Numbered from the stretch's first letter, positions 1-33,556 are shown. The stretch: DNA of 64,000 bases from Escherichia coli (GCF_041248615.1 NZ_CP158426.1); one strand, 5' to 3'. Notes: generated by a model not told the origin, from the sequence alone. Translations and numbers: made by a program.

Positions 1-264
1 CAGTTTTTCCAGATCTGATTTAAGACTCTTCGCCTGATCAACGAAATCAACAATATTCCGTACACCGGTGGCCGTTGCTAACTGGTCTTTATATGCCTGA
101 ATTTGGCTCTCATAATGCTGCGCTGTTTGTATCCAGCGTTGTGCCTCTTTCAGCCATTCGAGCTCACGTAGTGGGTCAGCATCCACCAGAACAGGGATAC
201 CTGCGTGTGCCATCGGGCTGATGATCACACACGCAATAATTAATGCATGAAAACGCCGTTTCAT
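1..264 (-). CDS. virB5: VirB5/TraC-like T4SS minor pilin, N-terminal part only (gene continues beyond window start)
   Basis: Minus-strand ATG at 264 preceded by AGGAG; translation MKRRFHALIIACVIISPMAHA (signal peptide) then coiled-coil-like QAYKDQLATATG; sits directly downstream of virB4; no stop before position 1. Confidence 0.45.
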   Translation of the reverse strand, partial: MKRRFHALIIACVIISPMAHAGIPVLVDADPLRELEWLKEAQRWIQTAQHYESQIQAYKDQLATATGVRNIVDFVDQAKSLKSDLEKL

Positions 265-284
265 CATGAATCTCCTGTGGATTT

Positions 285-3029
285 TCAGAGTGCCTGAGCC
301 AGGTAAGTATCCAGCCATTCATGGGGCTGCATTCCTTCCCGGTAGAGAGAGTCGAAGATTTCCAGGTTGTCGGCGCTGCCGCTCATGACTTTTGTGTACC
401 TGCCGATCCCGGAAAGATCGAGCGTCACACGTGCAGCAAAACGCTTTATGTCGCCACGTCTAAATTGATTTTTTACCACTACGTACTGACGGGCCTGAGG
501 ATCCAGGGCTTTCACGACGTCGAACACTTCCGGCTCAAACTTCATTCCGTCGACATAGTGTTCCCTGTCAGCACTGGGGTTGGCTGCCAGGATCTGCGTG
601 CCGCACTGCTCAATCACGGCAGGCGCAATTTCATCCCTGATGATCTCCGCCGGGGACTGTGTTCCAACAACCAGCATCCCGTTTAGCTTGCGGATAGTTT
701 TCAGTCGGTTATAGGCGAAATCCTTAAAAACCGGATCCCGTAGCCATTTCCAGAACTCATCCATGAAGATAACCAGTCGACGTCCGTCGAGTAGGCTGGT
801 AATGCGGTACAGCAGATAAAAGGAGATCGGTGCGCAGATATTCGTATCGTCAAGAAACTCTGTGCCGTCAATGCCAAAGTTATCGCAGCGACTGATATCG
901 AAGGTGTCTGATGCGTTATCAAACACCCAGCCAAACTCGCCACCCTGCGCCCACTGTGACAGGCGAATACTCAGGCCATTCTCCTGGGCTTCTCGGGTCG
1001 CAGGCTCCGGAAGATTCTCCAGTAAACGGGTGATCCCATGAATACGGTACTGTGGTTCATTACCGATCACCGCCAGTATGGCATCATTTAGACGTCGTTC
1101 ATTGCGGGGCGTGATGGTCGCACCGTTACGCGTACACAGCAGTTTCATCAGCTGACTGATAAAACTGATATTGCGTTTCGTGGGCGATAGCGAAAATGGG
1201 TTCCACCCGGTGGGCTCTCCATGTGTAATACGGTAATAACGGCCTTGCAATGCCCGGATATTCATTTCAGCGCCACGATCCTTATCCAGATAAACGGTTG
1301 TCAGTCGTTTGGTTTTTGCGTCGGGAGAAAAACTCTCCGTACGGCTATATTTCTGCTGCATGTTTTCCAGAAACGTCATGAGCATGGTTTTACCCGAACC
1401 GTTGGTACCGAGAATGCAGGTACTGGCTGGATTCTTCTCGTTGAATTCATCCTTATCCGCCAGCGTATTGTGAAGGTTCAGATAGTATCCATCCCCTGAT
1501 GGGGCACGCAGTAAGGCCATCGCATCCCCCCAGGGCGCATTATCGCGCTTGCCGGGATAGAAATTGTGTAGCGAAGCCAGCTCGACAAAATTCTGACTGC
1601 TCAGCTCACCCTTGCGGGGCCGCAAATGATAATTGCCAGGCAGTTGCGCCATATACCCGGCTGAAAGAGAAAGCGCGGCGGGAACCGATATAATGCCGAG
1701 GTTGTTCAGGGCATTGCTGATTTCGCTGGTATCGGCTACCAGACTATCCAGCGTCTGGGAAAACACCATGATGGAAAAATGGTGTTTTCCATACGCAATT
1801 TTTCCCGATGTCAGCAGGTCAAGCGCCACATCCAGATCCAGCCGCTGAGACACCGCATCATCATCTGAACTCATTAACAGACGTCGGGTGCGTTTGATGG
1901 CCTTCCGGGCTTCTTCCCGTGACATGCAGGTGTAGGACTGTGTGATGACATAATCACAGGGGGCATAAAGCAGAGAATCCATCATTCCAGTTGCTGTTTC
2001 TTCAGGGAACTCTTTAACTTCCAGACCCCGGAAATACTGGGTGCCGCCGGTATGGTTTATCTGTCCAGACTCCCCGGAGAAAAACAGCGCCGCCGATCCC
2101 ATGACGGAATATGCAGGAGCACGGGTGACGCGGATCCTGCGCCATTGGTGCGTCAAGAGATACTCGTAAAAGGATAACTGGGAGGAGAATACCGCCTGTT
2201 CTTCGCTGAAAGTACCAAGAGAGTGTGCGGCGTAGCGTGACAGAGCGGTATCGAGGGTACCTTTAATTTCCAGCATCCCCTGCAACACACCGTCAAGCTC
2301 TTTCAGTTTCTGGCCGTCTTTCATACGCCGGTGTCCGGCTTTTTCCAGACTGGCAAAAGGGCGGTAGCAGGCAGTCAGGAACAAGCGGTTACGGCGAAAC
2401 GGGTTAGCCTCCAGCGAGGCATAATACAGACGGCTGACTTCATCAGCGTAAGGGTTGCCGGATACCTTATGTAGCGAATCGGTAAATGGCTCCCTTACGT
2501 TATGGATATAGAAGGTGACCGGCATCCCCTCGAAAGAGCGGATAATTCCGTGCAACTGGTTACGGTCAATATTGAGCGTTTCTTCTGATTCACAATCGAA
2601 CGGAGTGCCCGTCAGTTCCCAGGTACAGTAGAGGTCACTATTGGGTGAGCGGACGACATGTTGATGAATATGCGATGAATACGGAATGTATTTCCTGAGC
2701 GTGGCACTCTGATTCAATTTCATGACGTTGAGAAACTCCGTGATATCAACAGCATCATGCTCAATGGGCATAAATGCTGTTGCGCCAAATAGACGGTTTG
2801 CCGCAGGTTTTCCTCTTGCCCTGAGCCAGACGGCTATCAGGCTGAACCGCATGGGTTCATTCTTGGTAAGCGATTTCATCAGCAGAAATTCAATCGGGAG
2901 TAGGGCGAGGAAAGCGACGGAGGTCCAGACAGCAATGATGATGGTGATACCCGTGACAGCCAGTAGAGGCACCATCGGCACTCCCCATAGTGCCGCCGGA
3001 CGTCTCATTGCCTTAAGCAGCTTTGCCAT
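285..3029 (-). CDS. virB4: VirB3-VirB4 fusion, T4SS ATPase
   Basis: 914-aa ORF; N-terminal membrane segment (VirB3-like), Walker A GTNGSGKT, CagE/TrbE/VirB4-like length and layout. Confidence 0.85.
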   Translation of the reverse strand: MAKLLKAMRRPAALWGVPMVPLLAVTGITIIIAVWTSVAFLALLPIEFLLMKSLTKNEPMRFSLIAVWLRARGKPAANRLFGATAFMPIEHDAVDITEFLNVMKLNQSATLRKYIPYSSHIHQHVVRSPNSDLYCTWELTGTPFDCESEETLNIDRNQLHGIIRSFEGMPVTFYIHNVREPFTDSLHKVSGNPYADEVSRLYYASLEANPFRRNRLFLTACYRPFASLEKAGHRRMKDGQKLKELDGVLQGMLEIKGTLDTALSRYAAHSLGTFSEEQAVFSSQLSFYEYLLTHQWRRIRVTRAPAYSVMGSAALFFSGESGQINHTGGTQYFRGLEVKEFPEETATGMMDSLLYAPCDYVITQSYTCMSREEARKAIKRTRRLLMSSDDDAVSQRLDLDVALDLLTSGKIAYGKHHFSIMVFSQTLDSLVADTSEISNALNNLGIISVPAALSLSAGYMAQLPGNYHLRPRKGELSSQNFVELASLHNFYPGKRDNAPWGDAMALLRAPSGDGYYLNLHNTLADKDEFNEKNPASTCILGTNGSGKTMLMTFLENMQQKYSRTESFSPDAKTKRLTTVYLDKDRGAEMNIRALQGRYYRITHGEPTGWNPFSLSPTKRNISFISQLMKLLCTRNGATITPRNERRLNDAILAVIGNEPQYRIHGITRLLENLPEPATREAQENGLSIRLSQWAQGGEFGWVFDNASDTFDISRCDNFGIDGTEFLDDTNICAPISFYLLYRITSLLDGRRLVIFMDEFWKWLRDPVFKDFAYNRLKTIRKLNGMLVVGTQSPAEIIRDEIAPAVIEQCGTQILAANPSADREHYVDGMKFEPEVFDVVKALDPQARQYVVVKNQFRRGDIKRFAARVTLDLSGIGRYTKVMSGSADNLEIFDSLYREGMQPHEWLDTYLAQAL

Positions 3030-3039
3030 AGATAACCTC

Positions 3040-3333
3040 TCAGCTCATCAGCAGTGCGCCGATTTCACTGCCTCCACCAATCAGGATGCCGCCAATGATG
3101 ATGTAGGCGCACTGGGACAGGCTTTCGCCTTTCCAGAGTGTCTTGTAACCTACCCAGATCACGGCCACGGTAATGGTGATGGCCGCCAGGCCATTAAGGC
3201 CGGTGGCGACTTTTTCCATCACGGTATTTGCGCGTTGAAAGCCATCGGCAAAAACCGGAGGTACAGAACAAACGATGAGTGCAAATGCGGAAACATGACT
3301 GAAAGCGGCCTTAAGTTTGCAGCAAAGTGTCAT
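3040..3333 (-). CDS. virB2: VirB2-like pilin
   Basis: 97-aa ORF with signal-like N-terminus and two hydrophobic segments, placed between virB1 and virB3/4. Confidence 0.55.
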   Translation of the reverse strand: MTLCCKLKAAFSHVSAFALIVCSVPPVFADGFQRANTVMEKVATGLNGLAAITITVAVIWVGYKTLWKGESLSQCAYIIIGGILIGGGSEIGALLMS

Positions 3334-4088
3334 TATTCTTTCTCCTCACGGGGTGACAGGGAGAGGCTCCGGCGCAATGACGGCGTAGAGATCTTTTCTA
3401 TGGCAATTTTCTTCTGGCGGAATTTTGAGGGGACGCCACGAACCACGCCCTTCGGCCAGATCACGCAGGGACGTAACTGGTCACCTGCAGGCGTAGGCTT
3501 CAGGAACGGCGGGGGTGTCAATTTATCCTCGTGGGTTCCGGGTACGGCATAGTGGGGAGCAGCAGCGTAACCGATTCGTTGCACATAGCTGGTTCCGGAA
3601 AAAGCCGCTTCCGGCTGTTCTCCGGTACGGAAATTGCCGGAGTAGTAGCAACTCAGTGCTCTTTTCAGCGAGCCGCCGCGTCGGTAACAGTCGTTGAGGA
3701 TGTGTTCGAAAACAGACAAATTGGTACAGGGATCAAGCAGCTCAGAGGCTGTCACACCGTAATGATGGAAATTGGTGCTGGTAATTTGCATCAGCCCCAC
3801 AGAATAACGGCGGCTCTGCGCCATAAGGCGACCTATGATTCGCTCGGCTCTTTCCCGGCTGGTGGGCTGATGAGAAATGATTTTATTGTGACCGAAGGTG
3901 CCTGAGCCCTTTGGGATAATTTCGGCGATCGCATAAGGGTTAAAATTGGACTCCACCCTTACGACGTCGAGTGCTGTGGACGGATGAATGCTGGTGGCAC
4001 ACTGCATGGCCACCGCCAGAAAGGCAGATGTGGAAAGCATAGTAGCCTCGGGAATGCGGGCAGCGTACATAGCCAAAGAACCATGCAT
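3333..4088 (-). CDS. virB1: VirB1-like lytic transglycosylase
   Basis: 251-aa ORF with SLT-type motifs (VESNFNPYA, GLMQI); first gene of the virB cluster; true start may be internal. Confidence 0.7.
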   Translation of the reverse strand: MHGSLAMYAARIPEATMLSTSAFLAVAMQCATSIHPSTALDVVRVESNFNPYAIAEIIPKGSGTFGHNKIISHQPTSRERAERIIGRLMAQSRRYSVGLMQITSTNFHHYGVTASELLDPCTNLSVFEHILNDCYRRGGSLKRALSCYYSGNFRTGEQPEAAFSGTSYVQRIGYAAAPHYAVPGTHEDKLTPPPFLKPTPAGDQLRPCVIWPKGVVRGVPSKFRQKKIAIEKISTPSLRRSLSLSPREEKE

Positions 4089-4677: not shown

Positions 4678-4887
4678 TTAGCGTTTACGTCGTTCAAGCA
4701 TTTCCTGGCATTCTCTACACGTTGTTACTCCTGGCAGAGTGTGCCTCCGCTTTTCAGGAATTGGTCTACCGCAGAACTGACAGTGATACAGGGAAGGTGT
4801 TGCTGCTGGTTTGAAACGGCTTTGTTCAATCATTTCCTCCAGACGTTGCTCATTGAATTCCTGGTCGCGATCAACTTCGTCAGGCAT
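4678..4887 (-). CDS. traR: TraR/DksA-family C4 zinc-finger protein
   Basis: Translation MPDEVDRDQEFNEQRLEEMIEQ...CQFCGRPIPEKRRHTLPGVTTCRECQ; CxxC...CxxC motif; start taken at the internal Met of the 88-aa ORF. Confidence 0.7.
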   Translation of the reverse strand: MPDEVDRDQEFNEQRLEEMIEQSRFKPAATPSLYHCQFCGRPIPEKRRHTLPGVTTCRECQEMLERRKR

Positions 4888-4888
4888 A

Positions 4889-5461
4889 TCATGTCCTCCT
4901 GTCTGTCCTTCCCTGCTCGCAAAATGTGATTCGGTTACACACAACAGTGAGTGAGGGGGGATTGGGCTCTGAGGCTAACTCTTCGGTGATCTGCATCATG
5001 ATGTTAATTGCTTCATTAGCATCAGGACTTTTCCCTTTTAACGCCTTCCATCGGCACCATATTGTGGCATCCATGGTTTCATCAGGAAGAGGTGAGCGTC
5101 CATACGGTACAGAGATGCCCTGTAATCTGCGGTTGAAACAGACATCGTTGGAAGTAAGACCAAAATAATGCTTTAGTAAGGCTATAGATCCACCTAACCG
5201 GATCGCCCGATTAATTTGCTGATGATGCTGGGTTTCAGTACGTGCTCTTTCCAGCTGTTTGCGTAAAATGTCATGGTGAATTTTGACTGTAATAAATGAT
5301 GCGGGAGAGTGGCAGATGTTCAATAATACATCAAGTGGTAACTGACTGATTTCGTTTATTTCTTCAAGAGTAAATCCAAGTGTTTCACCATAAGATAAGT
5401 CACCATCCTTCAATGCATAAATTACATCCGTGAGTACGTAATAATTCAGCAAGGGAAACAT
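4889..5461 (-). CDS. Hypothetical protein (element-associated)
   Basis: 190-aa ORF directly between alpA and traR on the same strand; no motif recognised. Confidence 0.4.
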   Translation of the reverse strand: MFPLLNYYVLTDVIYALKDGDLSYGETLGFTLEEINEISQLPLDVLLNICHSPASFITVKIHHDILRKQLERARTETQHHQQINRAIRLGGSIALLKHYFGLTSNDVCFNRRLQGISVPYGRSPLPDETMDATIWCRWKALKGKSPDANEAINIMMQITEELASEPNPPSLTVVCNRITFCEQGRTDRRT

Positions 5462-5478
5462 AAGTTATCTCTCTTATC

Positions 5479-5664
5479 TTAGCGGTTAGCTAATTTACAA
5501 TTAATCCATTCGTCAATCTCCGACTCGAGCCAGGCTACGCTGGCTGGGCCGATTTTTATTGAGAGTGGGAAACGCTTGTCTTTCATATACAGATAGATTT
5601 GTGAGCGTTTAAGACCTGTTTTTTGCTCGACCTGTCTGAGGCGTAATAATTGATGAGATGGCAT
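5479..5664 (-). CDS. alpA: AlpA-family transcriptional regulator / excisionase-like
   Basis: 61-aa ORF; LRLRQVEQKTGLKRSQIYLYMKDKRFP matches the AlpA HTH pattern as I recall it. Confidence 0.75.
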   Translation of the reverse strand: MPSHQLLRLRQVEQKTGLKRSQIYLYMKDKRFPLSIKIGPASVAWLESEIDEWINCKLANR

Positions 5665-5798: not shown

Positions 5799-6752
5799 CT
5801 ACTTCACCGTAGTTTTAAACGATAAAGGGGAGCCACGCTCCAGCGCCGTTTTTAGCGTATCACCGCTGAGATGATCGGTGATACCATCAGAGATTGCCCA
5901 TTCCTCAAATATAGACAAGAGTTTGTAGGGTTGTTTCACCAGAGGGCGTATATCATCATTATGATAACAGGCTAGCCAGAACAGCCGGGATAAGGGCGTA
6001 GATATTCTCGTCGGAGATAACTTGGGGTTTTTGTCACTGGTTAGCTTTTCTATCAATCTCTCAATTTCAACACATTTGATAACGAAAAAAGCATCTTGTG
6101 GCAAGTCATGCATTGGGAAGTAGCATGGATCCGCATAGTCCCGCTTTTCATTCCGCAAGGAAGACTCTTTTATTATAGAGGTGGTTTCATTCGATAAGTA
6201 TTTTATCTTGCTCTGAATTTGTTCTTTCCATGATATTTTATTGAAAAGTAAGAAAAGTTCATTTCCACTCGTAACAGTGATGCCAAAATTAATGGTGTCA
6301 GGATTATCAATAGGTAGTGGCATGCTGAGCGAGTCTGCTAGATATCTTTGTATGATAATGTATTCAAATCCAAATAGGTTTGTGTCCAAAATATTCCTGC
6401 GAGATGAAAAGTAATCTCCTTCAGTAGATATGATAAGGTTCCTATTATTTTTGAAACAATGTTTATCAAGAAAGCAGAGTCTCTTTAGCTCTGAATTGTC
6501 CAAGGTAGATATTTTTACTTTTTCTCCATTTTTAGTTATTTTTCGTAATGTCACCGGAGACTGGAAGTAAATGGATAGATTGATTTGCCCATACAGTGCA
6601 CAGCGATATATTGTACTTTCTGTAATTGAAGTATCGAATGTCTCATTAATCACTTGCACAGCTTCGTGTATTGTTAACCAGTTTTTTGCCATAAGCTTGA
6701 GATTGCTATTCCAGGACATAAGTGATTTTCCTTCATTTATTTTCTTTGGCAA
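5799..6752 (-). CDS. Hypothetical protein, possible N-terminal HTH
   Basis: 317-aa ORF, AT-rich; N-terminus LTIHEAVQVINETFD...TIYRCA resembles an HTH; remainder unrecognised. Confidence 0.4.
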   Translation of the reverse strand: MPKKINEGKSLMSWNSNLKLMAKNWLTIHEAVQVINETFDTSITESTIYRCALYGQINLSIYFQSPVTLRKITKNGEKVKISTLDNSELKRLCFLDKHCFKNNRNLIISTEGDYFSSRRNILDTNLFGFEYIIIQRYLADSLSMPLPIDNPDTINFGITVTSGNELFLLFNKISWKEQIQSKIKYLSNETTSIIKESSLRNEKRDYADPCYFPMHDLPQDAFFVIKCVEIERLIEKLTSDKNPKLSPTRISTPLSRLFWLACYHNDDIRPLVKQPYKLLSIFEEWAISDGITDHLSGDTLKTALERGSPLSFKTTVK

Positions 6753-8970: not shown

Positions 8971-9412
8971 TGTTGACGCCTCATGCTGAATGATTTGTTA
9001 TGTTATAACGTTATGAATTATTTAAGGTCGAGGACTTGAATGTTATTTTTTGTTGCTTCGGGTTACTTAATATTAATCATTGGAAAATCACGAGGCTCCC
9101 AATGTATTGATAAATTGGATTTTTAATACCCATCACTACCTCTCATCGCTTGAATCATGATGACATCAGGCGTCCAGGTATGATCGTAATCTGCAAGAGC
9201 ACTGCTGATTAGCCTTTGTCCCATCTGTTTACTTTAAATCCTGAATTATCAAACAGGACAATGGAGTCCTGCTGGAAACATATTGATATAGATCCTTTCA
9301 AAAGATAATTATTCTCATTATTATTGGTTATGTTATAACGTAACAATTGAGGGTGTGCCGAGATTTAGAATGAGTCTATCCATTATTCGATGACTTATTC
9401 TGGGGAGGAATT

Positions 9413-10854: not shown

Positions 10855-11943
10855 GTGCTAAGTATGCTTAATGGAAAAATATTATTCTCATTATTCATAT
10901 CATCGATAATATTATTATCAACGGCAAGCTATGCCAATAGTAGTGAGGTGAGTAAGACGATAAATGACCAAAATATGAAAAATACTGAAGAAATACCCAT
11001 AAAATTCAACCGTATTATTATCACCGGCAATTGCCCCTTTGGTGTAATTATGGCAAATGATTTGGCATATAAACATGTTGTGGGCGTAGGACCTTGGGCT
11101 TTTCTGCATTCAAACATGAAACTTCTCAAGGATATGAAGCCAGATATCGACCGTATCACTACTGACTTTATTAATAAAGACTATGTTGTAAATATGGAAT
11201 CCTTACTAAATTTACAACCAGATATTATTTACTATTATGGTAAAAGTCAGAATGATAATCTGCAGCGGGCAGGGATCCCAACTATTAATCTTGATGCTGG
11301 TGGTGACACGAAATTTGAGCCAGTAGTAACGCAAACGTATTGGGAAAACGAATTTAACCAGACGCTTGGTTTACCTCACAGTCACAAATTTTCGGATGCA
11401 TGGAAGAGAAGCCTCAATGAGGCAAAACCATATGCCGAGAAGATCAAATCACAACATATTCGGGCATTATATCTTGAGCAGAGTGATGGGAAAGAGCTCA
11501 AGGTGAGTGGGCCGAAAACATATGGTGATACCTATCTTAAGATGGCGGGGATGGAAAATGTAGCAAGTGATCTGGTGGTAAAAGGGGATGCTGGCAGGTA
11601 CATTAATGTTTCAATGGAGCAAATAATTCAGTGGGATCCCGATGTTGTATTTGTGGTCTTTGGTAGCGCGAAGGATATTCTTAATAATAAAAATCCCGGG
11701 CAAGATTGGCATAATGTTAAAGCATTCAAAGATGGGAAAATATTTTCTACACCCGTAGGACTACATAATTGGGGAGGATTGTCTGCTGAGACTTCGCTAT
11801 TACCATTGTTTATGATTAATAAATTTAACCCTGACTATATAACAGATGCAGAATTGAAAGTTGCAACGCGGTTACACTATAAAAAAGTGTTTGATTATGA
11901 AATTCCGGACGCGCTATTAACCGATGAGTTAAGACAGCGGTAA
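10855..11943 (+). CDS. ABC importer substrate-binding protein (siderophore/heme/B12-type)
   Basis: 362-aa ORF with signal peptide, directly upstream of FecCD-type permease and ATPase genes. Confidence 0.7.
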   Translation: MLSMLNGKILFSLFISSIILLSTASYANSSEVSKTINDQNMKNTEEIPIKFNRIIITGNCPFGVIMANDLAYKHVVGVGPWAFLHSNMKLLKDMKPDIDRITTDFINKDYVVNMESLLNLQPDIIYYYGKSQNDNLQRAGIPTINLDAGGDTKFEPVVTQTYWENEFNQTLGLPHSHKFSDAWKRSLNEAKPYAEKIKSQHIRALYLEQSDGKELKVSGPKTYGDTYLKMAGMENVASDLVVKGDAGRYINVSMEQIIQWDPDVVFVVFGSAKDILNNKNPGQDWHNVKAFKDGKIFSTPVGLHNWGGLSAETSLLPLFMINKFNPDYITDAELKVATRLHYKKVFDYEIPDALLTDELRQR

Positions 11944-11986
11944 TAAAGTAATTCGGCGAATAGGTTTTTATTTTTAAAGGTTAGTT

Positions 11987-13000
11987 ATGCAGGAAAGACA
12001 AAAATACCGCATGCTGATGTGGATTTCAATCGTATTGTTACTGATTGTGGCTATGATTTCTTTGTTCATAGGTCGCTATACATTATCTATCCCCGAAATA
12101 ATGACGGAGGTATTACATGATAATGGTCACCGTTGTTTGAGCGCAGGATTCTCGGTTATATGCAATCTACGGTTGCCAAGGATTATTGCCGTCATGATGG
12201 TAGGGGCAGGGCTATCAGTAGCAGGCGTGACGTATCAAGCGGTGTTGCGAAATGCACTGGCTAGCCCGGATGTGCTCGGTACATCTTCCGCCGCAGCGTT
12301 CGGCGCAGCACTTGGGATACTGCTAGGTTTTCCACTACAACTCAGCGCTTTTTCCTCTTTCTTCTTTGGCATTGTCAGCCTTTTATGCGTGATGGGACTT
12401 TGCCATTTCAAGAAAAACAATGGGGAGCTCACGACTATCCTGTCGGGCATCATAGTGGCTTCGGTGTTTATGTCTTTTGTATCAATCATTAAATATGTTG
12501 CCGATCCACAGGACGAACTCCCGGCTATCGTCTTCTGGCTTATGGGGAGTTTCGCTTCTCTGGTCAAAGAGCAGGTTTATGGACTCATCCCGCTATACAT
12601 CATTTGTTATCTGGCTATTTACAAACTTCGATGGAAAATCAATGTGTTGTCTTTGGGAAATGATGAGGCCAAAATTGCTGGAATGAACCCACAATTGTTG
12701 AATACAGTTTTGCTAATCACAGCCTCAATTTTGGTGGCAGCATCAGTCACCATCGCTGGCGTGGTGGGCTGGGTTGGTCTGGTTATCCCGCATCTGGTTA
12801 GAACGCTGGTCGGGTACAACCATAGCAAGCTGATCCCGGCTTCGGCTGTATGTGGTGCGTTGTTTTTATTGGTCATCGACAACATTGCCAGGACCCTGAC
12901 TTACGCAGAGATCCCCATTGGAATACTTACTGCTCTGGTTGGTGCGCCTTTATTTGCTGTACTGTTCATCATGAGTAACCGATATGATCGAAGTGAATAA
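11987..13000 (+). CDS. ABC importer permease, FecCD/BtuC family
   Basis: 337-aa polytopic ORF with GWVGLVIPHLVR-type motif. Confidence 0.8.
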   Translation: MQERQKYRMLMWISIVLLLIVAMISLFIGRYTLSIPEIMTEVLHDNGHRCLSAGFSVICNLRLPRIIAVMMVGAGLSVAGVTYQAVLRNALASPDVLGTSSAAAFGAALGILLGFPLQLSAFSSFFFGIVSLLCVMGLCHFKKNNGELTTILSGIIVASVFMSFVSIIKYVADPQDELPAIVFWLMGSFASLVKEQVYGLIPLYIICYLAIYKLRWKINVLSLGNDEAKIAGMNPQLLNTVLLITASILVAASVTIAGVVGWVGLVIPHLVRTLVGYNHSKLIPASAVCGALFLLVIDNIARTLTYAEIPIGILTALVGAPLFAVLFIMSNRYDRSE

Positions 13001-13739
13001 TCTGACGTTCGCATTCAAAAAGAGTAAAACTGCCTTTAACAATATCAGCTTCTCCATTGATGAAGGTGAGGTACTGTGCGTATTAGGACCGAATGGTGTT
13101 GGCAAAACAACATTGCTTAAAACGGTTACCGGTCTGTATCAACCGGTTAGTGGCTCATGTCATATTGGCCGAGTGGGAAACCGGAAAGCTCGTATGGCGT
13201 ATGTCCCGCAGGCCAAACGTGTTCACTTTTCTTACAATGTACTCGATTTCATCTCCTTTGGGTGCCCATTACGGGGCGGAATGCTGGCATCTCCTGGGGC
13301 GAGGGACATCGAAAAAGCGGCGCGAATATTGTCGGGACTTGGCGCTTCATATCTTGCAACCAAAGACGTTAACCAGATAAGTGGAGGTGAACTACAGATG
13401 TGCTACATCGCGAAGGCGCTGGTCTCAGAGCCGGACATCCTTGTGCTTGATGAACCTGAATCAAATCTTGATTTTAATAATCAGTCTCTCATTATCAATT
13501 GGTTGCACACGTTGTCGCGAGAGAAAAAAGTTACTATTATCCTGAATACGCACTTCATCAATCATGCAAATAACATTGCAGATAAATGTTTGCTAATGGG
13601 AAAAGATAGTTACTGTTTTGGAACAACACAGAGTGTCTTACAAGAGTCTCTCCTCGCCGATTATTTCCATGTTCCCGTTAAACGCTGTCATTTTGAACAC
13701 AAAGGAATACAGAAAGAATCATTTATTGTTGCAGTGTGA
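12984..13739 (+). CDS. ABC importer ATP-binding protein
   Basis: Walker A GPNGVGKTT, signature LSGGELQM, Walker B LVLDEP; overlaps permease stop (coupled). Confidence 0.85.
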   Translation: MIEVNNLTFAFKKSKTAFNNISFSIDEGEVLCVLGPNGVGKTTLLKTVTGLYQPVSGSCHIGRVGNRKARMAYVPQAKRVHFSYNVLDFISFGCPLRGGMLASPGARDIEKAARILSGLGASYLATKDVNQISGGELQMCYIAKALVSEPDILVLDEPESNLDFNNQSLIINWLHTLSREKKVTIILNTHFINHANNIADKCLLMGKDSYCFGTTQSVLQESLLADYFHVPVKRCHFEHKGIQKESFIVAV

Positions 13740-13934
13740 TAGGTAGCCAATATCGCAGAGAAAATAAGAATTGAGGAATTGTTTATTGCGAAACCGTGCG
13801 AGTAGATGGTAATTCTGGTAGGAATATCATTTACGATTGATCAATTTTCCCACGGACTATATGCGATAAAATAACTTTGTCGATGCATGAAATAGCAGCT
13901 TCATTTTGTTAAAAGTAATAATAAAGGTGTAATT

Positions 13935-14552
13935 ATGATTAAAAAATTCGTTGAAGAATATCTTAATCAGATCTACATAAAAAAATACTCAATTATTACT
14001 ATTAATTCTCTTGATGAAGCTTCAATTATATCTAATATGCCTCATTGTTGGGAGCGTGATTTTCTGAAAAGAGAGCTGCATCTTCGAAGTGATATTGTAT
14101 TGAAAGCTAGAAGTAAAATAACCCCCTTCAAATGGTCTTCTGTAAATGGTAATAATGAAGATCTTAAGGCTTTATCCAATAGGTATAATATTAGCAATGG
14201 GGTGACTTTTGTTATAAAAATAAAACATGATGTCGTGATCTTCACGATGTACTACAATGAGGATGATGAGGATTTCATAAGATACTACTCTAGAAAGAAA
14301 CATAAAATATTGTATGATGTTATGAGTCTTTTTGAATCCCATTATGAACAAACACCCAAACATGTATTCACTGTACGAGAAAAGGAAGTTATGAATTTGC
14401 TGAAGTTTGGAAAAACTTATATTGAAATAGCATTTATTCTTGGTGTAAGTGAAAGGACCGTCAGATTTCATATCAATAATATTCTTGATAAATTGAATGT
14501 GACATCAGTTCGTTATGCGATCTTTAAAGCAGCTTCCGAAGGTTTGATCTGA
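13935..14552 (+). CDS. LuxR-family transcriptional regulator
   Basis: 205-aa ORF; C-terminal LuxR HTH (REKEVMNLLKFGKTYIEIAFILGVSERTVRFHINNILDKLN); AT-rich N-terminal domain. Confidence 0.7.
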   Translation: MIKKFVEEYLNQIYIKKYSIITINSLDEASIISNMPHCWERDFLKRELHLRSDIVLKARSKITPFKWSSVNGNNEDLKALSNRYNISNGVTFVIKIKHDVVIFTMYYNEDDEDFIRYYSRKKHKILYDVMSLFESHYEQTPKHVFTVREKEVMNLLKFGKTYIEIAFILGVSERTVRFHINNILDKLNVTSVRYAIFKAASEGLI

Positions 14553-14883
14553 CAAGGTTTTCCTTGTCAGATCATCTATCAATGACGATAGAATTCTGAA
14601 AGGCGTAATCTCAAGCCATCGGTATCAAATCCATGCGCCCGAATGTGTTCTTCTGGGGTCCAAAATTGTCTGAGCTCCTTTGGTTTTGCACCAATGGACA
14701 AGATTCTGTGAGGTATATCGGACAATGCCTCACCTATAGCATGAATTGTCGTTCCTTCTAGGTATGGTTAACCTAGCCGGTTTATTACTACATGTCGTGG
14801 CAACTCCAGCGGAGTACATAATAGTCCATTCAGCATTGTTACTTTTTGTGAACTAGACTGGAAAAGAACTGGGTCAAATCACA

Positions 14884-16188
14884 TTAAATGAAGATACGTA
14901 GGCCGACCGCCGCCAGATGATCTGATACATTATATGACGCATCAGTGTTACCGCTTGCTTTCTCATAACCGTATTCAATATAGGTCACTGCGTTTTTCCC
15001 CAGCCAGTAATCGGTACCCAGCGTGGTGGACTGGAAGTGTTGACCGTCCATCGCATCACCGCCTTCGGTCCAGTCAAAGTTGGCATAGACGCTCCACTCA
15101 GGGGTAATTTTGAACTGTGAGGCATATTCCAGACCCAGAATCGTTTCTTGGTCGTTAGTCTGTTTGCTGGCGCCGCTGGTTGCTGCCTGAACGTCATCAA
15201 CTTTGTTGATATAGTAAGTCGCTTGCGCGCCGTTATACCAGGTGAAACTATCAAAGCTGGTTGTGTACTTAGCGTTCATCCCCATCGAATAGGTATTACC
15301 GTCATATGAAGGGCCGGTCACCGTTGTAACTGGAACAGTACCACCGTGCGGACCTATGGGCACATCCGTGGTTATGGTACCCTGATTGACAGAATAGTTG
15401 TTATAAGCTGCCGTACCGGAAAGTGAGAAACCATTATCGAAGCGATATTGTGCTGCTAACGCAGCGCCGCCGTGAACAGTCGCGGAACCATCGTGGTACG
15501 CATCATGCATATCCGGTCCGTTGCCGTAACCGCTGCCAAAACCAATTTTATCGACATCGTCATTCCCTTGGCCCATTACACCCACCGTGAAGGCCTTGGT
15601 GTTGTAATAATAAATAACAGCCGAGTTAATAATATCGGTCGACATACCAGTGGTATCATGTTTGGCTTTGCCACCGTATGCATAGGTGGTATCAATTCCC
15701 AGCCCCCAGTCGGTTGGGGAATATTGCTTACCGAAAGTCACCACCCCATATTCATCATTACCTATCCCCGCATACGCCTGACGGGTATAAACATCGTTAC
15801 CCTGATTATCAGTTGCGGAATCCAGACCGTGTATGCCAGTTTCATAATAACCTGCTGCGTAATAGCCTTTGTCATTAATATTGTGTCGTAGTGCGACACC
15901 CAGACGTGAGTCGTTGTTTTGTATATTATGTTCTACACTGTGCGCTGAATCGTTCTTTGCCATGAGACGTAAGGATCCCATAACTGAAATGGCTGTATCA
16001 TCATTTTGATAAATCATCTCCCCCTTGGTCTGTGTAGCAGTATATGCTGGAGCCGTATGTTCCCCGCTACTCACCTGTGCACAGGCAGGTGCGACTATTG
16101 CTGCAGTAATAAGCGGAGCAACAATAAATGGTTTAAGTCTTATATATTTTACGTGCATAGAAACCCCATGATCATTGTTTAAGTTCAT
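14884..16188 (-). CDS. Outer-membrane beta-barrel protein (porin-like)
   Basis: 434-aa ORF, likely start at internal MHVKYIRLKPF (16158); signal peptide, G/Y/T-rich strands, C-terminal ...GLRIFI. Confidence 0.5.
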   Translation of the reverse strand: MNLNNDHGVSMHVKYIRLKPFIVAPLITAAIVAPACAQVSSGEHTAPAYTATQTKGEMIYQNDDTAISVMGSLRLMAKNDSAHSVEHNIQNNDSRLGVALRHNINDKGYYAAGYYETGIHGLDSATDNQGNDVYTRQAYAGIGNDEYGVVTFGKQYSPTDWGLGIDTTYAYGGKAKHDTTGMSTDIINSAVIYYYNTKAFTVGVMGQGNDDVDKIGFGSGYGNGPDMHDAYHDGSATVHGGAALAAQYRFDNGFSLSGTAAYNNYSVNQGTITTDVPIGPHGGTVPVTTVTGPSYDGNTYSMGMNAKYTTSFDSFTWYNGAQATYYINKVDDVQAATSGASKQTNDQETILGLEYASQFKITPEWSVYANFDWTEGGDAMDGQHFQSTTLGTDYWLGKNAVTYIEYGYEKASGNTDASYNVSDHLAAVGLRIFI

Positions 16189-16370
16189 TTTTAGAGTGTT
16201 TTTTAAATATGGAGAGTCTATTAAAAGCTTTTGAATATAAAATAAAACTGTCAGTTCTGACAGGAGTGTTTTTTATTTTCAATTAAATTATTAAGCATTT
16301 TTTCGGAGATGTGGGTTTTTTACACGGTATTAGCGAAACGGTTTGCCATGTAGTTTGGACAAAGTAAAAA

Positions 16371-16400
16371 GCCGCATCAGTCTGCACTGATGCGGCTTTG
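16371..16400. terminator. Hairpin terminator downstream of island integrase
   Basis: Perfect 11-bp stem GCCGCATCAGT/ACTGATGCGGC with 4-nt loop, flanked by A-run and T-run. Confidence 0.55.
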
Positions 16401-16422
16401 ATTTGTCAGGGTGACTAAATCA

Positions 16423-17694: not shown

Positions 17695-17855
17695 ATGGGG
17701 TCACTCCATAATAGAACGAACCGGACCCCAGATTTGACCACCAATTTTTCCCGATGCGGAGGATAAAATCAAAATGCATCAGGAGAAGTTTTCACGCTAA
17801 GCTGTTGTATTAAAACCATAGAGGCATTAATGAATGCTGCACGAAAACAAGAATT

Positions 17856-17931
17856 TGGCTCCTCTGACTGGACTCGAACCAGTGACATACGGATTAACAG
17901 TCCGCCGTTCTACCGACTGAACTACAGAGGA
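17856..17931 (-). tRNA. tRNA-Asn (anticodon GTT)
   Basis: Reverse complement reads TCCTCTGTAGTTCAGTCGGTAGAACGGCGGACTGTTAATCCG...GGTTCGAGTCCAGTCAGAGGAGCCA; 76 nt cloverleaf. Confidence 0.9.
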
Positions 17932-33477: not shown

Positions 33478-33478
33478 C

Positions 33479-33555: not shown

Positions 33556-33556
33556 T

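What the first reader, a model, noticed from the sequence alone, without database searches (positions are those of the whole stretch)
1..17931. tRNA-Asn ICE-like element with VirB T4SS and a non-siderophore-biosynthesis cargo module
The order (tRNA-Asn, P4-type int, cargo, alpA, traR, virB1, virB2, virB3/4, virB5...) resembles the integrase - cargo - xis - T4SS layout of asn-tRNA integrative conjugative elements that carry yersiniabactin. Here the cargo slot instead holds an AT-rich block: two outer-membrane beta-barrels, a LuxR-type regulator, a FecCD-type ABC importer (binding protein, permease, ATPase), an MFS transporter and a Tat-exported amidase. No biosynthetic genes are visible. This looks like a cargo swap on a conserved conjugative backbone, possibly an uptake or signalling module. 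The element is incomplete in this window.
Basis: partly seen in the sequence, partly recalled or inferred. Interest (0 to 1): 0.6.

Follow-up and report, generated by a model that had tools for sequence, protein, structure and literature searches.

The report
Yersiniabactin-type ICE carrying zinc-starvation cargo
This is the right-hand third of a roughly 52-kb conjugative island of the known yersiniabactin-ICE family in E. coli, in which the siderophore genes are replaced by a probably zinc-starvation-controlled transport and cell-wall cassette and by the leftover receptor of a deleted butyrolactone-type signalling cluster.

Summary
The window is E. coli NRZ14408. The element is a 51.7-kb ICE at asnT, bounded by perfect 17-bp attO repeats. 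It has an intact int, alpA, virB1-11, coupling-protein gene and mobC. Nineteen backbone proteins are 45-88% identical to, and syntenic with, a yersiniabactin ICE (ICEKp1/ICEEc1 family). The same element sits at asnV in two other strains, so it has moved.

The cargo is rare (5 of 5,426 complete E. coli genomes) and is made of two conserved modules rather than a random AT-rich block.

(A) porin-amiA divergent from MFS-binding protein-permease-ATPase. This cassette recurs in Yokenella, Serratia, Salmonella, Klebsiella and Enterobacter. Both of its promoters carry conserved Zur boxes; the only other match in the 64-kb window is the real zinT operator. I predict a zinc-starvation cassette that imports a small metal chelate.

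(B) A LuxR-type receptor. In relatives it always faces a 7-gene AfsA (butyrolactone-synthase) operon. Here a 5.8-kb deletion removed that operon and left a 62-codon transketolase stub. One lux-box-like palindrome survives upstream of the second porin.

Verdict: a new variant of a known ICE family with two uncharacterised cargo modules. All regulation and substrates are predicted, not tested.

The parts
17856..17931 (-). tRNA-Asn (asnT), the integration target
   Evidence: ARAGORN. Rfam tRNA, 72.6 bits. RefSeq annotation places it next to mtfA.
17855..17871 (-). Proximal 17-bp attO repeat CCAGTCAGAGGAGCCAA at the 3' end of the tRNA. The distal copy lies about 51.7 kb to the left, outside the window.
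   Evidence: Sequence read. Distal copy found. Identical to the published HPI-ICE attO (PMC2801613).
16423..17694 (-). P4-type tyrosine integrase
   Evidence: NCBIfam integrase domain, 248 bits. 83% identical to the integrase of a ybt ICE.
16248..16263 (.). Lux-box-like palindrome CTGTCAGTTCTGACAG (CTG-N10-CAG), 90-105 bp upstream of the second porin gene
   Evidence: It is the only match in the 64-kb window. The same palindrome is invariant upstream of the AfsA operon in four species. It is duplicated upstream of the porin in the intact ICEs.
14884..16158 (-). Divergent porin: 424 aa from the RefSeq start; the ORF extends to 16188
   Evidence: Pfam Porin_1, E = 4.6e-5. It is 59-66% identical to porins that sit beside the MFS/ABC importer in an Enterobacter mori plasmid and in K. 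aerogenes.
14579..14767 (-). Stub of 62 codons plus stop from the transketolase C-subunit gene. The deletion junction is at about 14769.
   Evidence: The blastn break against E. coli A38 is at window 14769: L003 16265 is joined to L003 22089. The translated stub matches the C-terminus of the A38 transketolase.
13935..14552 (+). LuxR-type receptor (205 aa), left without its signal synthase genes by the deletion
   Evidence: Pfam GerE, 4.8e-15, and Autoind_bind, 5.5e-5. The ligand domain aligns to YenR and QscR. Homologues always face an AfsA operon.
12984..13739 (+). ABC importer ATPase
   Evidence: NCBIfam matches to heme, zinc (AztA) and FecE-type ATPases, all below cut-off.
11987..13000 (+). 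FecCD-family ABC permease
   Evidence: NCBIfam BtuC, FecD and FhuB matches, all below cut-off. RefSeq annotates it as FecCD family.
10864..11943 (+). Periplasmic binding protein (Peripla_BP_2) of a small Enterobacterales-only family
   Evidence: Only 26 relatives among 5.8 billion proteins. PDB sequence hits are 4ovk, MolA and H. pylori CeuE with Ni-His. AlphaFold model with pLDDT 83; Foldseek gives the same neighbours plus YiuA.
9413..10795 (+). DHA2-family MFS efflux-type transporter
   Evidence: TIGR00711 EmrB subfamily, 199 bits. PDB hits are EmrB, EfpA and QacA. Unrelated to YbtX.
9326..9345 (.). Predicted Zur box 2, GGTTATGTTATAACGTAACA, immediately downstream of the predicted -10 of the MFS-ABC operon
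   Evidence: [quoted passage not shown] Invariant core in the six aligned sequences. Promoter scan.
9304..9322 (.). Fur-box-like sequence overlapping the core promoter of the MFS operon. Weak evidence.
   Evidence: 16 of 19 matches to GATAATGATAATCATTATC on the minus strand. 16 of 19 by eye in the E. mori plasmid copy (sequence printed). It coincides with the promoter spacer and -10, so it may be promoter sequence only.
8996..9015 (.). Predicted Zur box 1, TGTTATGTTATAACGTTATG, 26-45 bp upstream of the amiA start codon
   Evidence: 18 of 20 matches to the Zur box. Core invariant across species. Spacing to the start codon is similar to the zinT operator in the same window.
8134..8970 (-). Second-copy AmiA (N-acetylmuramoyl-L-alanine amidase) with a twin-arginine leader
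   Evidence: NCBIfam AmiA, 413 bits, above the cut-off of 400. Closely similar to solved E. coli AmiA 8c2o (330 bits), with the GHGG, EKH and SIHAD motifs kept.
6988..8037 (-). PhoE/OmpC-like general porin, probably co-transcribed with amiA
   Evidence: NCBIfam PhoE 195 bits and OmpC 179 bits, both below cut-off. The porin-amidase pair is conserved in every orthologous cassette with amiA.
5799..6752 (-). Backbone hypothetical protein (306 aa in RefSeq), function unknown
   Evidence: No Pfam, NCBIfam or PADLOC match. A syntenic homologue, 46% identical, sits between fyuA and alpA in the ybt ICE.
5479..5664 (-). AlpA-family regulator, the presumed excisionase
   Evidence: RefSeq annotation. 85% identical to the ybt-ICE AlpA.
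4889..5461 (-). DUF2857 backbone protein
   Evidence: RefSeq annotation. 45% identical to its ybt-ICE counterpart.
4678..4887 (-). TraR/DksA C4 zinc-finger protein
   Evidence: TIGR02419, 82.9 bits, above cut-off. 68% identical to its ybt-ICE counterpart.
3333..4040 (-). VirB1 lytic transglycosylase
   Evidence: NCBIfam VirB1, E = 7.9e-20. 72% identical to its ybt-ICE counterpart.
3040..3333 (-). VirB2/TrbC pilin
   Evidence: RefSeq annotation. 78% identical to its ybt-ICE counterpart.
285..3029 (-). Fused VirB3/VirB4 ATPase
   Evidence: TIGR00929, 609 bits. 86% identical to its ybt-ICE counterpart.
1..264 (-). 5' part of virB5, cut by the window edge
   Evidence: Sequence with a signal peptide. 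RefSeq gene at L001 29232-29936.

Best explanation
Window 1-17931 is the integrase-proximal 17.9 kb of a 51.7-kb integrative conjugative element of the ICEKp1/ICEEc1 (yersiniabactin-ICE) family. It is inserted in asnT of E. coli NRZ14408.

Shown:
- The backbone is the family's usual one and is annotated intact: int, alpA, DUF2857, traR, virB1-11, coupling protein, mobC.
- The element is bounded by the family's 17-bp attO repeats.
- The same element occupies a different asn tRNA gene in other strains, so it has moved.
- The slot between int and alpA, which holds the ybt genes in the classical elements, holds two unrelated portable modules here.

Module A (6988-13739, perhaps also the porin at 14884-16158). 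Two divergent transcription units, amiA-porin and MFS-binding protein-permease-ATPase, each have a Zur operator placed just downstream of the predicted -10.
Inferred: when zinc is plentiful, host Zur represses both units. Under zinc starvation the cell then makes:
- an extra copy of the zinc-dependent cell-division amidase AmiA;
- an extra general porin;
- an MFS exporter;
- a type II ABC importer whose binding protein resembles binders of small metal chelates (Ni-histidine CeuE, YiuA, MolA).
The most likely mechanism is this. A small chelator, or a metal-chelate complex, crosses the outer membrane through the porins rather than through a TonB-dependent receptor. The ABC system then pumps it into the cytoplasm. 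The MFS pump exports the free ligand or clears any excess. The metal is probably zinc or a substitute such as cobalt or nickel. The ligand is unknown.

Module B (13935-14769, plus the palindrome at 16248-16263). This was an eight-gene signalling cluster: a LuxR-type receptor convergent with an operon encoding AfsA, ACP, ketosynthase, HAD hydrolase, MFS and a split transketolase. Lux-box-like palindromes stood upstream of the operon and of the neighbouring porin.
Shown: a 5.8-kb deletion removed the operon and its palindrome.
Inferred: the remaining LuxR is an orphan. It can at most respond to a signal made by other bacteria, and its one remaining target would be the porin gene.
For: Identity of the window and limits of the element:
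- 100% match to NZ_LT599825.1.
- Full T4SS, coupling protein and MobC lie to the left.
- The distal perfect attO lies next to yeeJ. attO is identical to the published HPI-ICE site.

Family:
- 19 backbone proteins are 45-88% identical to, and collinear with, a ybt ICE.
- The 707-bp non-coding stretch upstream of the coupling-protein gene is 91% identical, against about 78% in the virB genes. This fits a conserved oriT.

Mobility:
- The same element, 99.9% identical and with the same deletion, sits at asnV (next to nac-cbl) in strains YF-1 and 2018-06-4CC. In NRZ14408 it sits at asnT (next to mtfA).

Rarity:
- 5 of 5,426 complete E. coli genomes carry the cargo.

Module A:
- The cassette recurs in unrelated genomic contexts in Yokenella, Serratia grimesii, Salmonella diarizonae and K. 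aerogenes, and on Enterobacter plasmids.
- The two Zur-box matches (1 and 2 mismatches in 20) are the invariant islands of an otherwise 55%-identical intergenic alignment.
- In the 64-kb window the pattern hits only these two sites and the zinT promoter. zinT was confirmed at 430 bits. Chance expectation is 0.16 hits.
- In the orthologous loci the hits fall at the same two places: both in Yokenella, S. grimesii, Salmonella diarizonae and K. aerogenes, only the MFS-side one in L011.
- The E. mori plasmid copy also has a hit at its MFS promoter.
- A nearly identical perfect box lies in a zigA/hisI zinc island of another E. coli.
- Both boxes lie just downstream of predicted -10 hexamers.
- The binding protein's sequence and fold neighbours are CeuE with Ni-His, YiuA and MolA.
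- The MFS is of the efflux type.
- No regulator gene lies inside the conserved cassette.
- Precedents: Zur-regulated amiA in Pseudomonas (PMC6103462), and a Zur-regulated siderophore-type ABC importer plus exporter pair in P. aeruginosa (PMC11481552).
- No cobalamin riboswitch or other Rfam element is present.

Module B:
- The intact operon is present in E. coli A38 and in a Klebsiella ICE of the same layout. It is also present in C. freundii and S. fonticola.
- The AfsA-like protein matches the ScbA/BarX family over its full length.
- The deletion junction and the stub are shown. Four records share the deletion, and only A38 is intact.
- The palindrome is conserved in four species and duplicated before the porin.
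- The LuxR ligand domain keeps the W57, D70, W85 and G113 equivalents.
Against: No regulation, transport, excision or transfer was measured. Everything beyond gene content and sequence conservation is prediction.

Module A:
- The Zur boxes have CG where the consensus has the central TA step of the second half-site. The amiA-side box has 2 mismatches, and in one orthologue (L011) it exceeds 2 mismatches.
- A Fur-like sequence overlaps the MFS promoter, so iron control, or dual control, is possible.
- The AmiA copy keeps its zinc-ligand motifs. It is therefore not an obviously zinc-independent substitute.
- The binding-protein family has no conserved His/Cys cluster, and no ligand can be named.
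- The permease's best family match is BtuC.
- The lipoprotein gene found in the chromosomal cassettes is missing from the ICE version.

Module B:
- The second porin is linked to the importer in some species but carries a lux-box-like site here. Which module it belongs to is therefore ambiguous.
- A 16-bp palindrome with one hit in 64 kb is expected by chance in about 16% of shuffles. Its weight comes from cross-species conservation only.

Backbone:
- The ICE carries two IS3 copies and an integrase pseudogene in its variable region.
Confidence: 0.7

Rival explanations
1. Module A is an ordinary iron or siderophore uptake system under Fur control, as the database labels suggest ('iron complex transport system', 'iron ABC transporter permease'). 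On this view it is a like-for-like replacement of yersiniabactin uptake.
For: - The FecCD and Peripla_BP_2 families mostly carry siderophores, heme or B12.
- Sources name the homologues as iron complex transporters.
- A sequence with 16 of 19 matches to the Fur consensus overlaps the MFS promoter. By eye it also has 16 of 19 matches in the E. mori plasmid copy.
Against: - There is no TonB-dependent receptor in any of the cassette contexts examined. Porins stand in its place.
- The Fur-like sequence coincides with the core promoter and is poorly kept in Serratia.
- The two best-conserved elements are Zur-type boxes, and the pattern's perfect match in the window is the zinT operator.
- The nearest solved binding proteins include Ni-His, metal-ion and oxyanion binders rather than large catecholate or hydroxamate binders.
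- A second amiA gene makes no sense in an iron regulon, but Zur control of amiA has precedent.
Confidence: 0.15
2. The cargo has nothing to do with metals. On this view the conserved palindromes are operators of some other host regulator, and the cassette serves envelope remodelling or efflux and uptake of an organic compound such as a peptidoglycan fragment, an antibiotic or a signal. It might even import the product of the neighbouring AfsA cluster.
For: - The cassette combines an amidase, porins and a drug-efflux-type MFS.
- In the ICE it lies directly beside the LuxR/AfsA module.
- In Serratia a different LuxR-type gene follows it.
- The binding protein has no conserved His/Cys metal site.
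Against: - The cassette occurs without the AfsA/LuxR module in Yokenella, Salmonella, K. aerogenes and Enterobacter.
- The AfsA/LuxR module occurs without the cassette in C. freundii and S. fonticola.
- The Serratia LuxR is related to the window's only in its DNA-binding domain.
- The palindrome fits the published Zur box in 18-19 of 20 positions. It is near-identical to boxes at zinT and at a zigA island.
Confidence: 0.1
3. The element is a decaying, now immobile genomic island, and its cargo is non-functional junk on the way to loss.
For: - There is a 5.8-kb deletion in the cargo.
- The lipoprotein gene of the cassette is lost.
- The variable region holds two IS3 copies, one frameshifted, and an integrase pseudogene.
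- An extra 1.3-kb insert lies between virB10 and virB11.
Against: - All backbone genes are annotated intact.
- Both attO repeats are perfect.
- The deleted form is 99.9% identical at two different asn tRNA genes in strains from Germany(?), China and Viet Nam. It therefore integrated at least twice after the deletion.
- All remaining cargo ORFs are open.
Confidence: 0.05

Closest known systems
ICEKp1 / ICEEc1 / HPI-ICEEh1 (yersiniabactin ICEs at asn tRNA genes)
   Same: - Same 17-bp attO and same asn tRNA target.
- Same backbone gene order: int, cargo slot, hypothetical gene, alpA, DUF2857, traR, virB1-11, cag12, coupling protein, mobC, ardC, variable end.
- Backbone proteins are 45-88% identical.
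- The non-coding stretch upstream of the coupling-protein gene is 91% identical.
   Different: - There is no ybt locus. The slot holds the Zur-box cassette and the LuxR remnant instead.
- The backbone is about 78% identical at the DNA level, so this is a diverged lineage and not a recent ybt loss.
- An extra 1.3-kb insert lies between virB10 and virB11.
- The variable region is different: an ABC-three-component system, UbiD/UbiX, GH16/GT32 and hchA.
Pseudomonas aeruginosa Zur-regulated PA2911-PA2914 importer with the PA4063-PA4066 exporter (PMC11481552)
   Same: - A siderophore-type (FecCD/binding-protein) ABC importer is paired with an exporter.
- Control is by Zur rather than Fur.
- It is proposed to move a metal-chelate complex during zinc starvation.
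   Different: - The Pseudomonas system has a TonB-dependent receptor and a MacB-type exporter, and its cargo (pyochelin-cobalt) was tested experimentally.
- Here the outer-membrane components are porins, the exporter is a DHA2 MFS, and nothing has been tested.
- Sequence relatedness to the Pseudomonas proteins was not measured here.
Zur-regulated amiA/amiC paralogues of Pseudomonas (PMC6103462); by my own recollection also Zur-controlled cell-wall hydrolases such as Vibrio cholerae ShyB
   Same: A second copy of a zinc-dependent peptidoglycan hydrolase is placed under a Zur operator.
   Different: - Here the gene is highly similar to E. coli's own AmiA (330 bits against 8c2o).
- It is paired with a porin.
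- It rides a mobile cassette.
Helicobacter pylori CeuE (HP1561), which binds Ni-(His)2; Yersinia YiuA; Haemophilus MolA
   Same: These are the closest solved relatives of the binding protein by sequence and by fold. They bind small metal complexes or oxyanions that do not need a large siderophore pocket.
   Different: Identity is only 17-24%. The best match of all, 4ovk, has no assigned ligand. Substrate transfer from these relatives is a guess.
Streptomyces AfsA/ScbA gamma-butyrolactone synthases with ArpA-type (TetR-family) receptors
   Same: Relatives of this cargo carry a full-length AfsA/ScbA-family gene with an ACP and a ketosynthase. AfsA homologues in Citrobacter and Dickeya have been noted but not characterised (PMC8209734).
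   Different: - The receptor next to the operon is a LuxR-type protein, not a TetR-type one.
- The operon adds a split transketolase, a HAD hydrolase and an MFS.
- In this window the operon is deleted.
LuxR solos (SdiA, QscR and the non-AHL solos of Photorhabdus)
   Same: - An Autoind_bind plus GerE protein with no LuxI partner.
- It has a CTG-N10-CAG palindrome as candidate operator.
   Different: - It is shorter, at 205 aa.
- Two of the six canonical ligand-pocket residues are changed (Y61 to F, P71 to I).
- It became a solo through a recent deletion of an AfsA-type operon, not a LuxI gene.

Membership tests
ICEKp1/ICEEc1 (HPI-ICE) family | Integration at the 3' end of an asn tRNA gene, flanked by 17-bp attO direct repeats CCAGTCAGAGGAGCCAA | tested here: met
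   The proximal repeat is at window 17855-17871. The distal perfect copy is at L002 44786-44802, in the same orientation. The sequence equals the published attO.
ICEKp1/ICEEc1 (HPI-ICE) family | P4-type tyrosine integrase next to the tRNA, orthologous to the HPI integrase | tested here: met
   83% identity over 417 aa to the integrase of a ybt ICE. Integrase domain confirmed.
ICEKp1/ICEEc1 (HPI-ICE) family | AlpA-type excisionase followed by a VirB-type T4SS (virB1-11) | tested here: met
   Genes are present, collinear and 60-88% identical. Function was not tested.
ICEKp1/ICEEc1 (HPI-ICE) family | Mobilisation module: coupling protein (MobB), MobC and oriT | tested here: inconclusive
   The coupling protein (78% identical) and MobC (80% identical) are present. 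No oriT was mapped. The 707-bp non-coding stretch upstream of the coupling-protein gene is 91% identical to the ybt ICE and rich in inverted repeats.
ICEKp1/ICEEc1 (HPI-ICE) family | Carries the yersiniabactin (ybt/irp/fyuA) locus | tested here: not met
   No ybt gene lies between int and alpA. Compare the ybt ICE. The element is a backbone relative, not an HPI.
ICEKp1/ICEEc1 (HPI-ICE) family | Excises as a circle and transfers by conjugation | not testable with these tools
   Indirect evidence only: the identical element is at asnT in NRZ14408 and at asnV in YF-1 and 2018-06-4CC.
Zur regulon (gamma-proteobacterial) | Operator matching the Zur box, placed over the promoter | tested here: met
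   Matches of 18/20 and 19/20 to TGWNAYRWTATAWYRTNWCA at 8996-9015 and 9326-9345. The only other hit in the window is the zinT operator, and 0.16 hits are expected by chance. The boxes are conserved in the orthologous loci. They lie downstream of predicted -10 hexamers.
Zur regulon (gamma-proteobacterial) | Zur binding, and derepression under zinc limitation | not testable with these tools
   Needs a gel shift or footprint, and expression data in a zur mutant or with TPEN.
Type II metal-chelate ABC importers (FecCD / Peripla_BP_2) | Peripla_BP_2 binding protein, FecCD permease and ATPase in one operon | tested here: met
   (PF01497), the Pfam context tables, and the fold search.
Type II metal-chelate ABC importers (FecCD / Peripla_BP_2) | In Gram-negatives, a cognate TonB-dependent outer-membrane receptor | tested here: not met
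   None in the window or in any of the orthologous contexts examined. Porins are encoded instead.
LuxR-type quorum-sensing receptors | N-terminal autoinducer-binding domain plus C-terminal GerE helix-turn-helix | tested here: met
   GerE 4.8e-15; Autoind_bind 5.5e-5, which is weak. Aligns to the YenR and QscR ligand domains with 4 of 6 canonical residues kept.
LuxR-type quorum-sensing receptors | Adjacent LuxI-type AHL synthase | tested here: not met
   No LuxI gene in the window or in any related locus. Relatives carry an AfsA-type operon instead.
LuxR-type quorum-sensing receptors | Lux-box operator (CTG-N10-CAG palindrome) at target promoters | tested here: inconclusive
   The palindrome CTGTCAGTTCTGACAG is at 16248-16263. 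It is conserved upstream of the AfsA operon in four species. Binding was not tested, and a single hit is expected by chance in 16% of shuffles.
AfsA / gamma-butyrolactone signalling systems | AfsA-family synthase gene present | tested here: not met
   Deleted from the window; only a transketolase stub remains. It is present in A38, Klebsiella, C. freundii and S. fonticola relatives.
AfsA / gamma-butyrolactone signalling systems | ArpA-type (TetR-family) receptor | tested here: not met
   No TetR-family gene appears in the gene tables of the related loci. The conserved neighbour is the LuxR-type gene.

The most novel reading that the evidence does not exclude
Two uncharacterised systems ride this ICE family.

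(1) A portable Zur-controlled cassette would give Enterobacterales a TonB-independent route for a small metal-chelate complex: entry through porins, then a type II ABC importer, with an MFS exporter. It is coupled to a back-up AmiA for cell division under zinc starvation. On the ICE it would functionally replace the zinc- and iron-scavenging role of yersiniabactin.

(2) A hybrid quorum-sensing circuit would pair an AfsA-type butyrolactone or butenolide synthase operon with a LuxR-type receptor and a signal-controlled porin. The NRZ14408 copy has lost the synthase and kept the receptor, so it would act as an eavesdropper on signal-producing Klebsiella or Citrobacter.
Probability: 0.35. Interest if true: 0.7.

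Novelty: new variant of a known kind. Interest (0 to 1): 0.5.

Why it matters
The yersiniabactin ICE is one of the most important virulence-gene vehicles in Klebsiella and E. coli. This element shows that the same backbone and the same cargo slot carry other payloads, and that this variant has recently integrated at two different asn tRNA genes.

The payload gives two concrete, testable leads.

First lead: an accessory zinc-starvation cassette, limited to Enterobacterales, that includes a metal-chelate importer without a TonB-dependent receptor. It bears on how gut bacteria resist calprotectin-type metal withholding.

Second lead: a LuxR receptor paired with an AfsA-type synthase operon. That combination was not found described in the papers searched here, and it would link Streptomyces-style signal chemistry to a Proteobacteria-style receptor.

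If the predictions fail, the element is still a clear example of modular cargo exchange and decay on a known ICE.

Tried and rejected
- Cobalamin uptake. The permease's best family match is BtuC. However, no cobalamin riboswitch or any other Rfam element lies in 1-18100 at E <= 0.1.
- MFS as a YbtX-like zinc-yersiniabactin importer. There is no similarity. It is an EmrB/EfpA/QacA-type transporter.
- Defence function for the hypothetical backbone genes or the cargo. No meaningful PADLOC match.
- LuxR as part of the importer cassette. The LuxR gene that follows the cassette in Serratia is related only in its DNA-binding domain. The window-type LuxR occurs with the AfsA operon in loci that lack the cassette.
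- A Zur box upstream of the second porin. None at up to 5 mismatches.
- The strict 23-bp classical Zur consensus. No hit at up to 3 mismatches anywhere in the window, not even at zinT. I therefore used the structure-based 20-bp pattern from PMC4219657.
- Plasmid origin of the whole region. No plasmid covers more than the virB genes, at about 79% identity.
- Literature searches. I found no paper describing the cassette or the LuxR-AfsA pairing in Enterobacterales. The library is incomplete, so this absence is weak evidence.
- Not used: the scans of the genome and metagenome contig collections, the representative-protein search, and the third homologue search. The context look-ups already answered the questions.

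Full report
**1. What is in the sequence.**

ARAGORN finds tRNA-Asn at 17856-17931 on the minus strand.

Reading leftward from the tRNA, the genes are:
- a P4-type integrase;
- a divergent porin;
- a LuxR-type regulator;
- an ABC ATPase, a FecCD permease and a Peripla_BP_2 binding protein;
- a DHA2-type MFS transporter;
- an AmiA-type amidase with a twin-arginine leader;
- a PhoE/OmpC-like porin;
- a hypothetical protein;
- AlpA, a DUF2857 protein and TraR;
- VirB1, VirB2, fused VirB3/4 and the start of VirB5.

GC content is 51-53% in the T4SS genes and 32-47% in the cargo.

**2. Where it comes from and how far it extends.**

The region is 100% identical to the chromosome of E. coli NRZ14408, NZ_LT599825.1. 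Window position 1 corresponds to record position 2115672.

To the left of the window the RefSeq annotation shows the following:
- virB5 to virB11, a Cag12-like gene, the coupling protein and MobC;
- an IS3, hchA, glycosyl-hydrolase and glycosyltransferase genes, an integrase pseudogene and ArdC;
- a LysR/UbiD/UbiX block, an ABC-three-component system and a ComEC-like gene;
- a second, frameshifted IS3.

The tRNA ends in CCAGTCAGAGGAGCCAA. A second perfect copy in the same orientation lies next to yeeJ, 51.7 kb away. This 17-mer is the published attO of the HPI-ICEs (PMC2801613).

**3. Which ICE family.**

E. coli hits at about 78% DNA identity over virB1-virB5 include strain GENOMIC22-004, which I examined. 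It carries a yersiniabactin ICE with this order: int, ybtS to fyuA, hypothetical gene, alpA, DUF2857, traR, virB1-11, cag12, coupling protein, mobC, ardC, variable end.

All 19 backbone proteins I compared are collinear and 45-88% identical. Examples are Int 83%, VirB4 86%, VirB11 88% and MobC 80%.

The 306-aa hypothetical protein next to alpA is part of this backbone (46% identical).

The 707-bp non-coding stretch upstream of the coupling-protein gene is 91% identical between the two elements. That is higher than in the flanking genes, and the stretch is full of inverted repeats. From my own knowledge, the oriT of ICEKp1 was mapped upstream of mobB, so this is a good oriT candidate. I could not test it.

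The element is thus a diverged member of the ICEKp1/ICEEc1 backbone family without the ybt locus. A third cargo (an MFS, an Lrp-type regulator and a GNAT gene) occupies the same slot in strain 2022H047. The int-to-alpA interval therefore behaves as an exchangeable cargo slot.

**4. Evidence that it moves.**

The cargo is present in only 5 of 5,426 complete E. coli genomes.

In NRZ14408 the element is at asnT, next to mtfA. In YF-1 (manure, China) and 2018-06-4CC (human, Viet Nam) the same element is 99.9% identical and carries the same internal deletion. There it sits at asnV, next to nac-cbl. It has therefore integrated at least twice since the deletion occurred.

A Klebsiella genome carries the same ICE layout with an intact cargo.

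**5. Cargo module A: a portable cassette with Zur operators.**

The binding protein belongs to a very small family: 26 clusters among 5.8 billion proteins, and every hit that carries an organism name is from Enterobacterales.

I looked at its genomic context in Yokenella, Serratia grimesii, Salmonella diarizonae, K. aerogenes and an unnamed assembly. In all of them the same unit recurs inside otherwise unrelated neighbourhoods. The unit is porin and amidase on one strand, divergent from MFS, a 133-aa lipoprotein, binding protein, permease and ATPase.
- The lipoprotein gene is missing from the ICE version.
- On Enterobacter plasmids a shorter version has a 425-aa porin divergent from the MFS operon.
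- That porin, and one in the K. aerogenes locus, are 59-66% identical to the window's second porin.

No regulator gene lies inside the conserved unit.

I aligned the divergent intergenic regions of six loci. They are 55% identical on average, with two invariant islands that share the core ATGTTATAAC. [quoted passage not shown] (PMC4219657):
- 18 of 20 positions at 8996-9015;
- 19 of 20 positions at 9326-9345.

At up to 2 mismatches this pattern hits the 64-kb window at these two sites and at overlapping positions 61574-61598. Chance expectation is 0.16 hits. The perfect match there (61574-61593) lies 33 bp upstream of a gene that NCBIfam identifies as zinT at 430 bits. zinT is one of the classical Zur targets, so it serves as an internal positive control.

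Further support from other loci:
- In the orthologous 21-kb loci the hits fall at the same two positions. Both sites hit in Yokenella, S. grimesii, Salmonella diarizonae and K. aerogenes; in L011 only the MFS-side site does.
- The E. mori plasmid copy has a 1-mismatch box at its MFS promoter.
- A perfect, nearly identical box lies in a zigA/hisI zinc island of another E. coli.
- Both window boxes lie just downstream of predicted -10 hexamers, where a repressor would block RNA polymerase.

A Fur-like sequence (16 of 19 matches) overlaps the MFS core promoter. It may be real co-regulation or merely promoter sequence.

**6. What module A probably does.**

- The amidase is closely similar to the solved E. 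coli AmiA (330 bits against 8c2o). It keeps the motifs that hold the catalytic zinc.
- Zur-controlled amiA/amiC copies are known in Pseudomonas (PMC6103462).
- The binding protein's nearest solved relatives, by sequence and by an AlphaFold model (pLDDT 83), are an unassigned Veillonella protein, H. pylori CeuE with Ni-histidine, Yersinia YiuA and Haemophilus MolA. These are binders of small metal species rather than bulky siderophores.
- No TonB-dependent receptor is present in any context examined. Porins are there instead.
- The MFS is an EmrB/EfpA/QacA-type exporter and is unrelated to YbtX.
- A Zur-regulated pair of a siderophore-type ABC importer and an exporter has been shown in P. aeruginosa (PMC11481552).
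- No cobalamin riboswitch is present.

My best reading is a zinc-starvation cassette. A small chelate complex enters through the porins and is imported by the ABC system. The MFS exports the ligand or clears any excess. The extra AmiA supports cell separation when zinc is scarce. The regulator assignment is a well-supported prediction. The metal and the ligand are guesses.

**7. Cargo module B: an orphaned receptor.**

E. coli A38 carries the same cargo at about 95% identity, plus 5.8 kb between the LuxR gene and the second porin. The extra genes are an AfsA-related hotdog protein, an ACP, a FabF-like ketosynthase, a HAD hydrolase, an MFS and a split transketolase. The AfsA-like protein matches the ScbA/BarX gamma-butyrolactone family over its full length, below the curated cut-off.

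The window aligns to A38 on both sides of a single break at 14769. It still encodes the last 62 residues of the transketolase C subunit at 14579-14767. The window lineage therefore lost the operon by deletion. Only A38 among 5,426 E. coli genomes has it intact, and four records share the deletion.

The LuxR family is also small, with 43 clusters. In a Klebsiella ICE, a C. freundii island and the S. fonticola chromosome, the LuxR gene is always convergent with the same seven-gene operon.

The region upstream of the AfsA gene contains an invariant palindrome in all four species. In E. coli and Klebsiella it reads CTGTCAGTTCTGACAG, of the CTG-N10-CAG lux-box type. In the intact ICEs a second copy lies upstream of the porin gene. 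That second copy is the only one left in the window, at 16248-16263.

The LuxR ligand domain aligns to YenR and QscR. It keeps four of the six canonical pocket residues.

I infer a signal-synthase, receptor and porin circuit of which only the receptor and one target remain here. AfsA homologues in Citrobacter and Dickeya have been remarked on but not characterised (PMC8209734). I found no paper on the LuxR pairing.

**8. Rivals.**

- Iron/Fur control of module A is possible but less well supported. There is no TonB receptor, the Fur-like site is weakly conserved and coincides with the promoter, and the amiA linkage has no place in an iron regulon.
- A non-metal function would require the palindromes to be something other than Zur boxes, despite their fit and the zinT control.
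- An immobile, decaying island is contradicted by the two integration sites and the intact backbone.

**9. Verdict.**

The backbone is a known kind of ICE. What is new is the cargo: two conserved, uncharacterised modules, one of them truncated in this strain. Interest is moderate. It would rise if Zur control and chelate import, or the LuxR-AfsA signalling circuit, were confirmed experimentally.

Noticed in passing
window 61574-61593: A perfect match to the structure-based Zur box lies 33 bp upstream of zinT (60891-61541, minus strand). I used it as the internal positive control for the Zur-box scan.
   Followed up: yes
window about 19040-59700: A lambdoid prophage is inserted at tRNA-Ser (serU, 18923-19012), and its integrase is frameshifted. 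It carries a four-tRNA cluster at 33401-33710. ARAGORN calls the first of these Met(CAT), whereas RefSeq calls it Ile.
   Followed up: partly
L002 19870-30497 (same genome, asnW): A second small island of about 10.5 kb sits at another asn tRNA gene. It has the same 17-bp repeat at its far end, a frameshifted integrase and an RHS core protein.
   Followed up: no
L013 1-4540 (E. coli GENOMIC22-004, beside the ybt-ICE integrase): This zinc-type island carries zigA, a hisI pseudogene, a Fur-family regulator and another FecCD/binding-protein ABC importer. A perfect Zur box TGTTATGTTATAACGTAACA is at 1406-1425. Its binding protein is only about 24% identical to the window's. It resembles the EhGI1 island described by Paauw et al.
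   Followed up: partly
L001 20675-21381 (left of the window): The non-coding stretch upstream of the coupling-protein gene is 91% identical to that of the ybt ICE, although the flanking virB genes are about 78% identical. It holds several inverted repeats and is a candidate oriT.
   Followed up: partly
L001 23535-24739 (left of the window): An extra 1.3-kb insert lies between virB10 and virB11. It has a 335-aa hypothetical gene on the opposite strand. The insert is absent from the ybt ICE, where the two genes abut.
   Followed up: no
L001 1-17500 and L002 45160-49500 (variable end of the ICE): The accessory load at the far end of the ICE includes an ABC-three-component system with an AAA ATPase, a ComEC-like gene, UbiD/UbiX with a LysR regulator, GT32 and GH16 genes, hchA, two IS3 copies and an integrase pseudogene. 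In Serratia a DJ-1/PfpI (hchA-like) gene sits directly after the importer cassette.
   Followed up: no
L004 8858-13550 (E. coli 2022H047): A related ICE backbone, about 84% identical in the virB genes, sits at another asn tRNA gene. Its int-to-alpA slot holds a third cargo: an MFS transporter, an Lrp/AsnC regulator and a GNAT acetyltransferase.
   Followed up: partly
L003 25194-26694 (E. coli A38): In A38 the match to the window ends 24 bp into the tRNA sequence and is followed by a DUF6387 gene rather than a complete tRNA. The intact-cargo ICE therefore appears to lie in tandem with another island.
   Followed up: no
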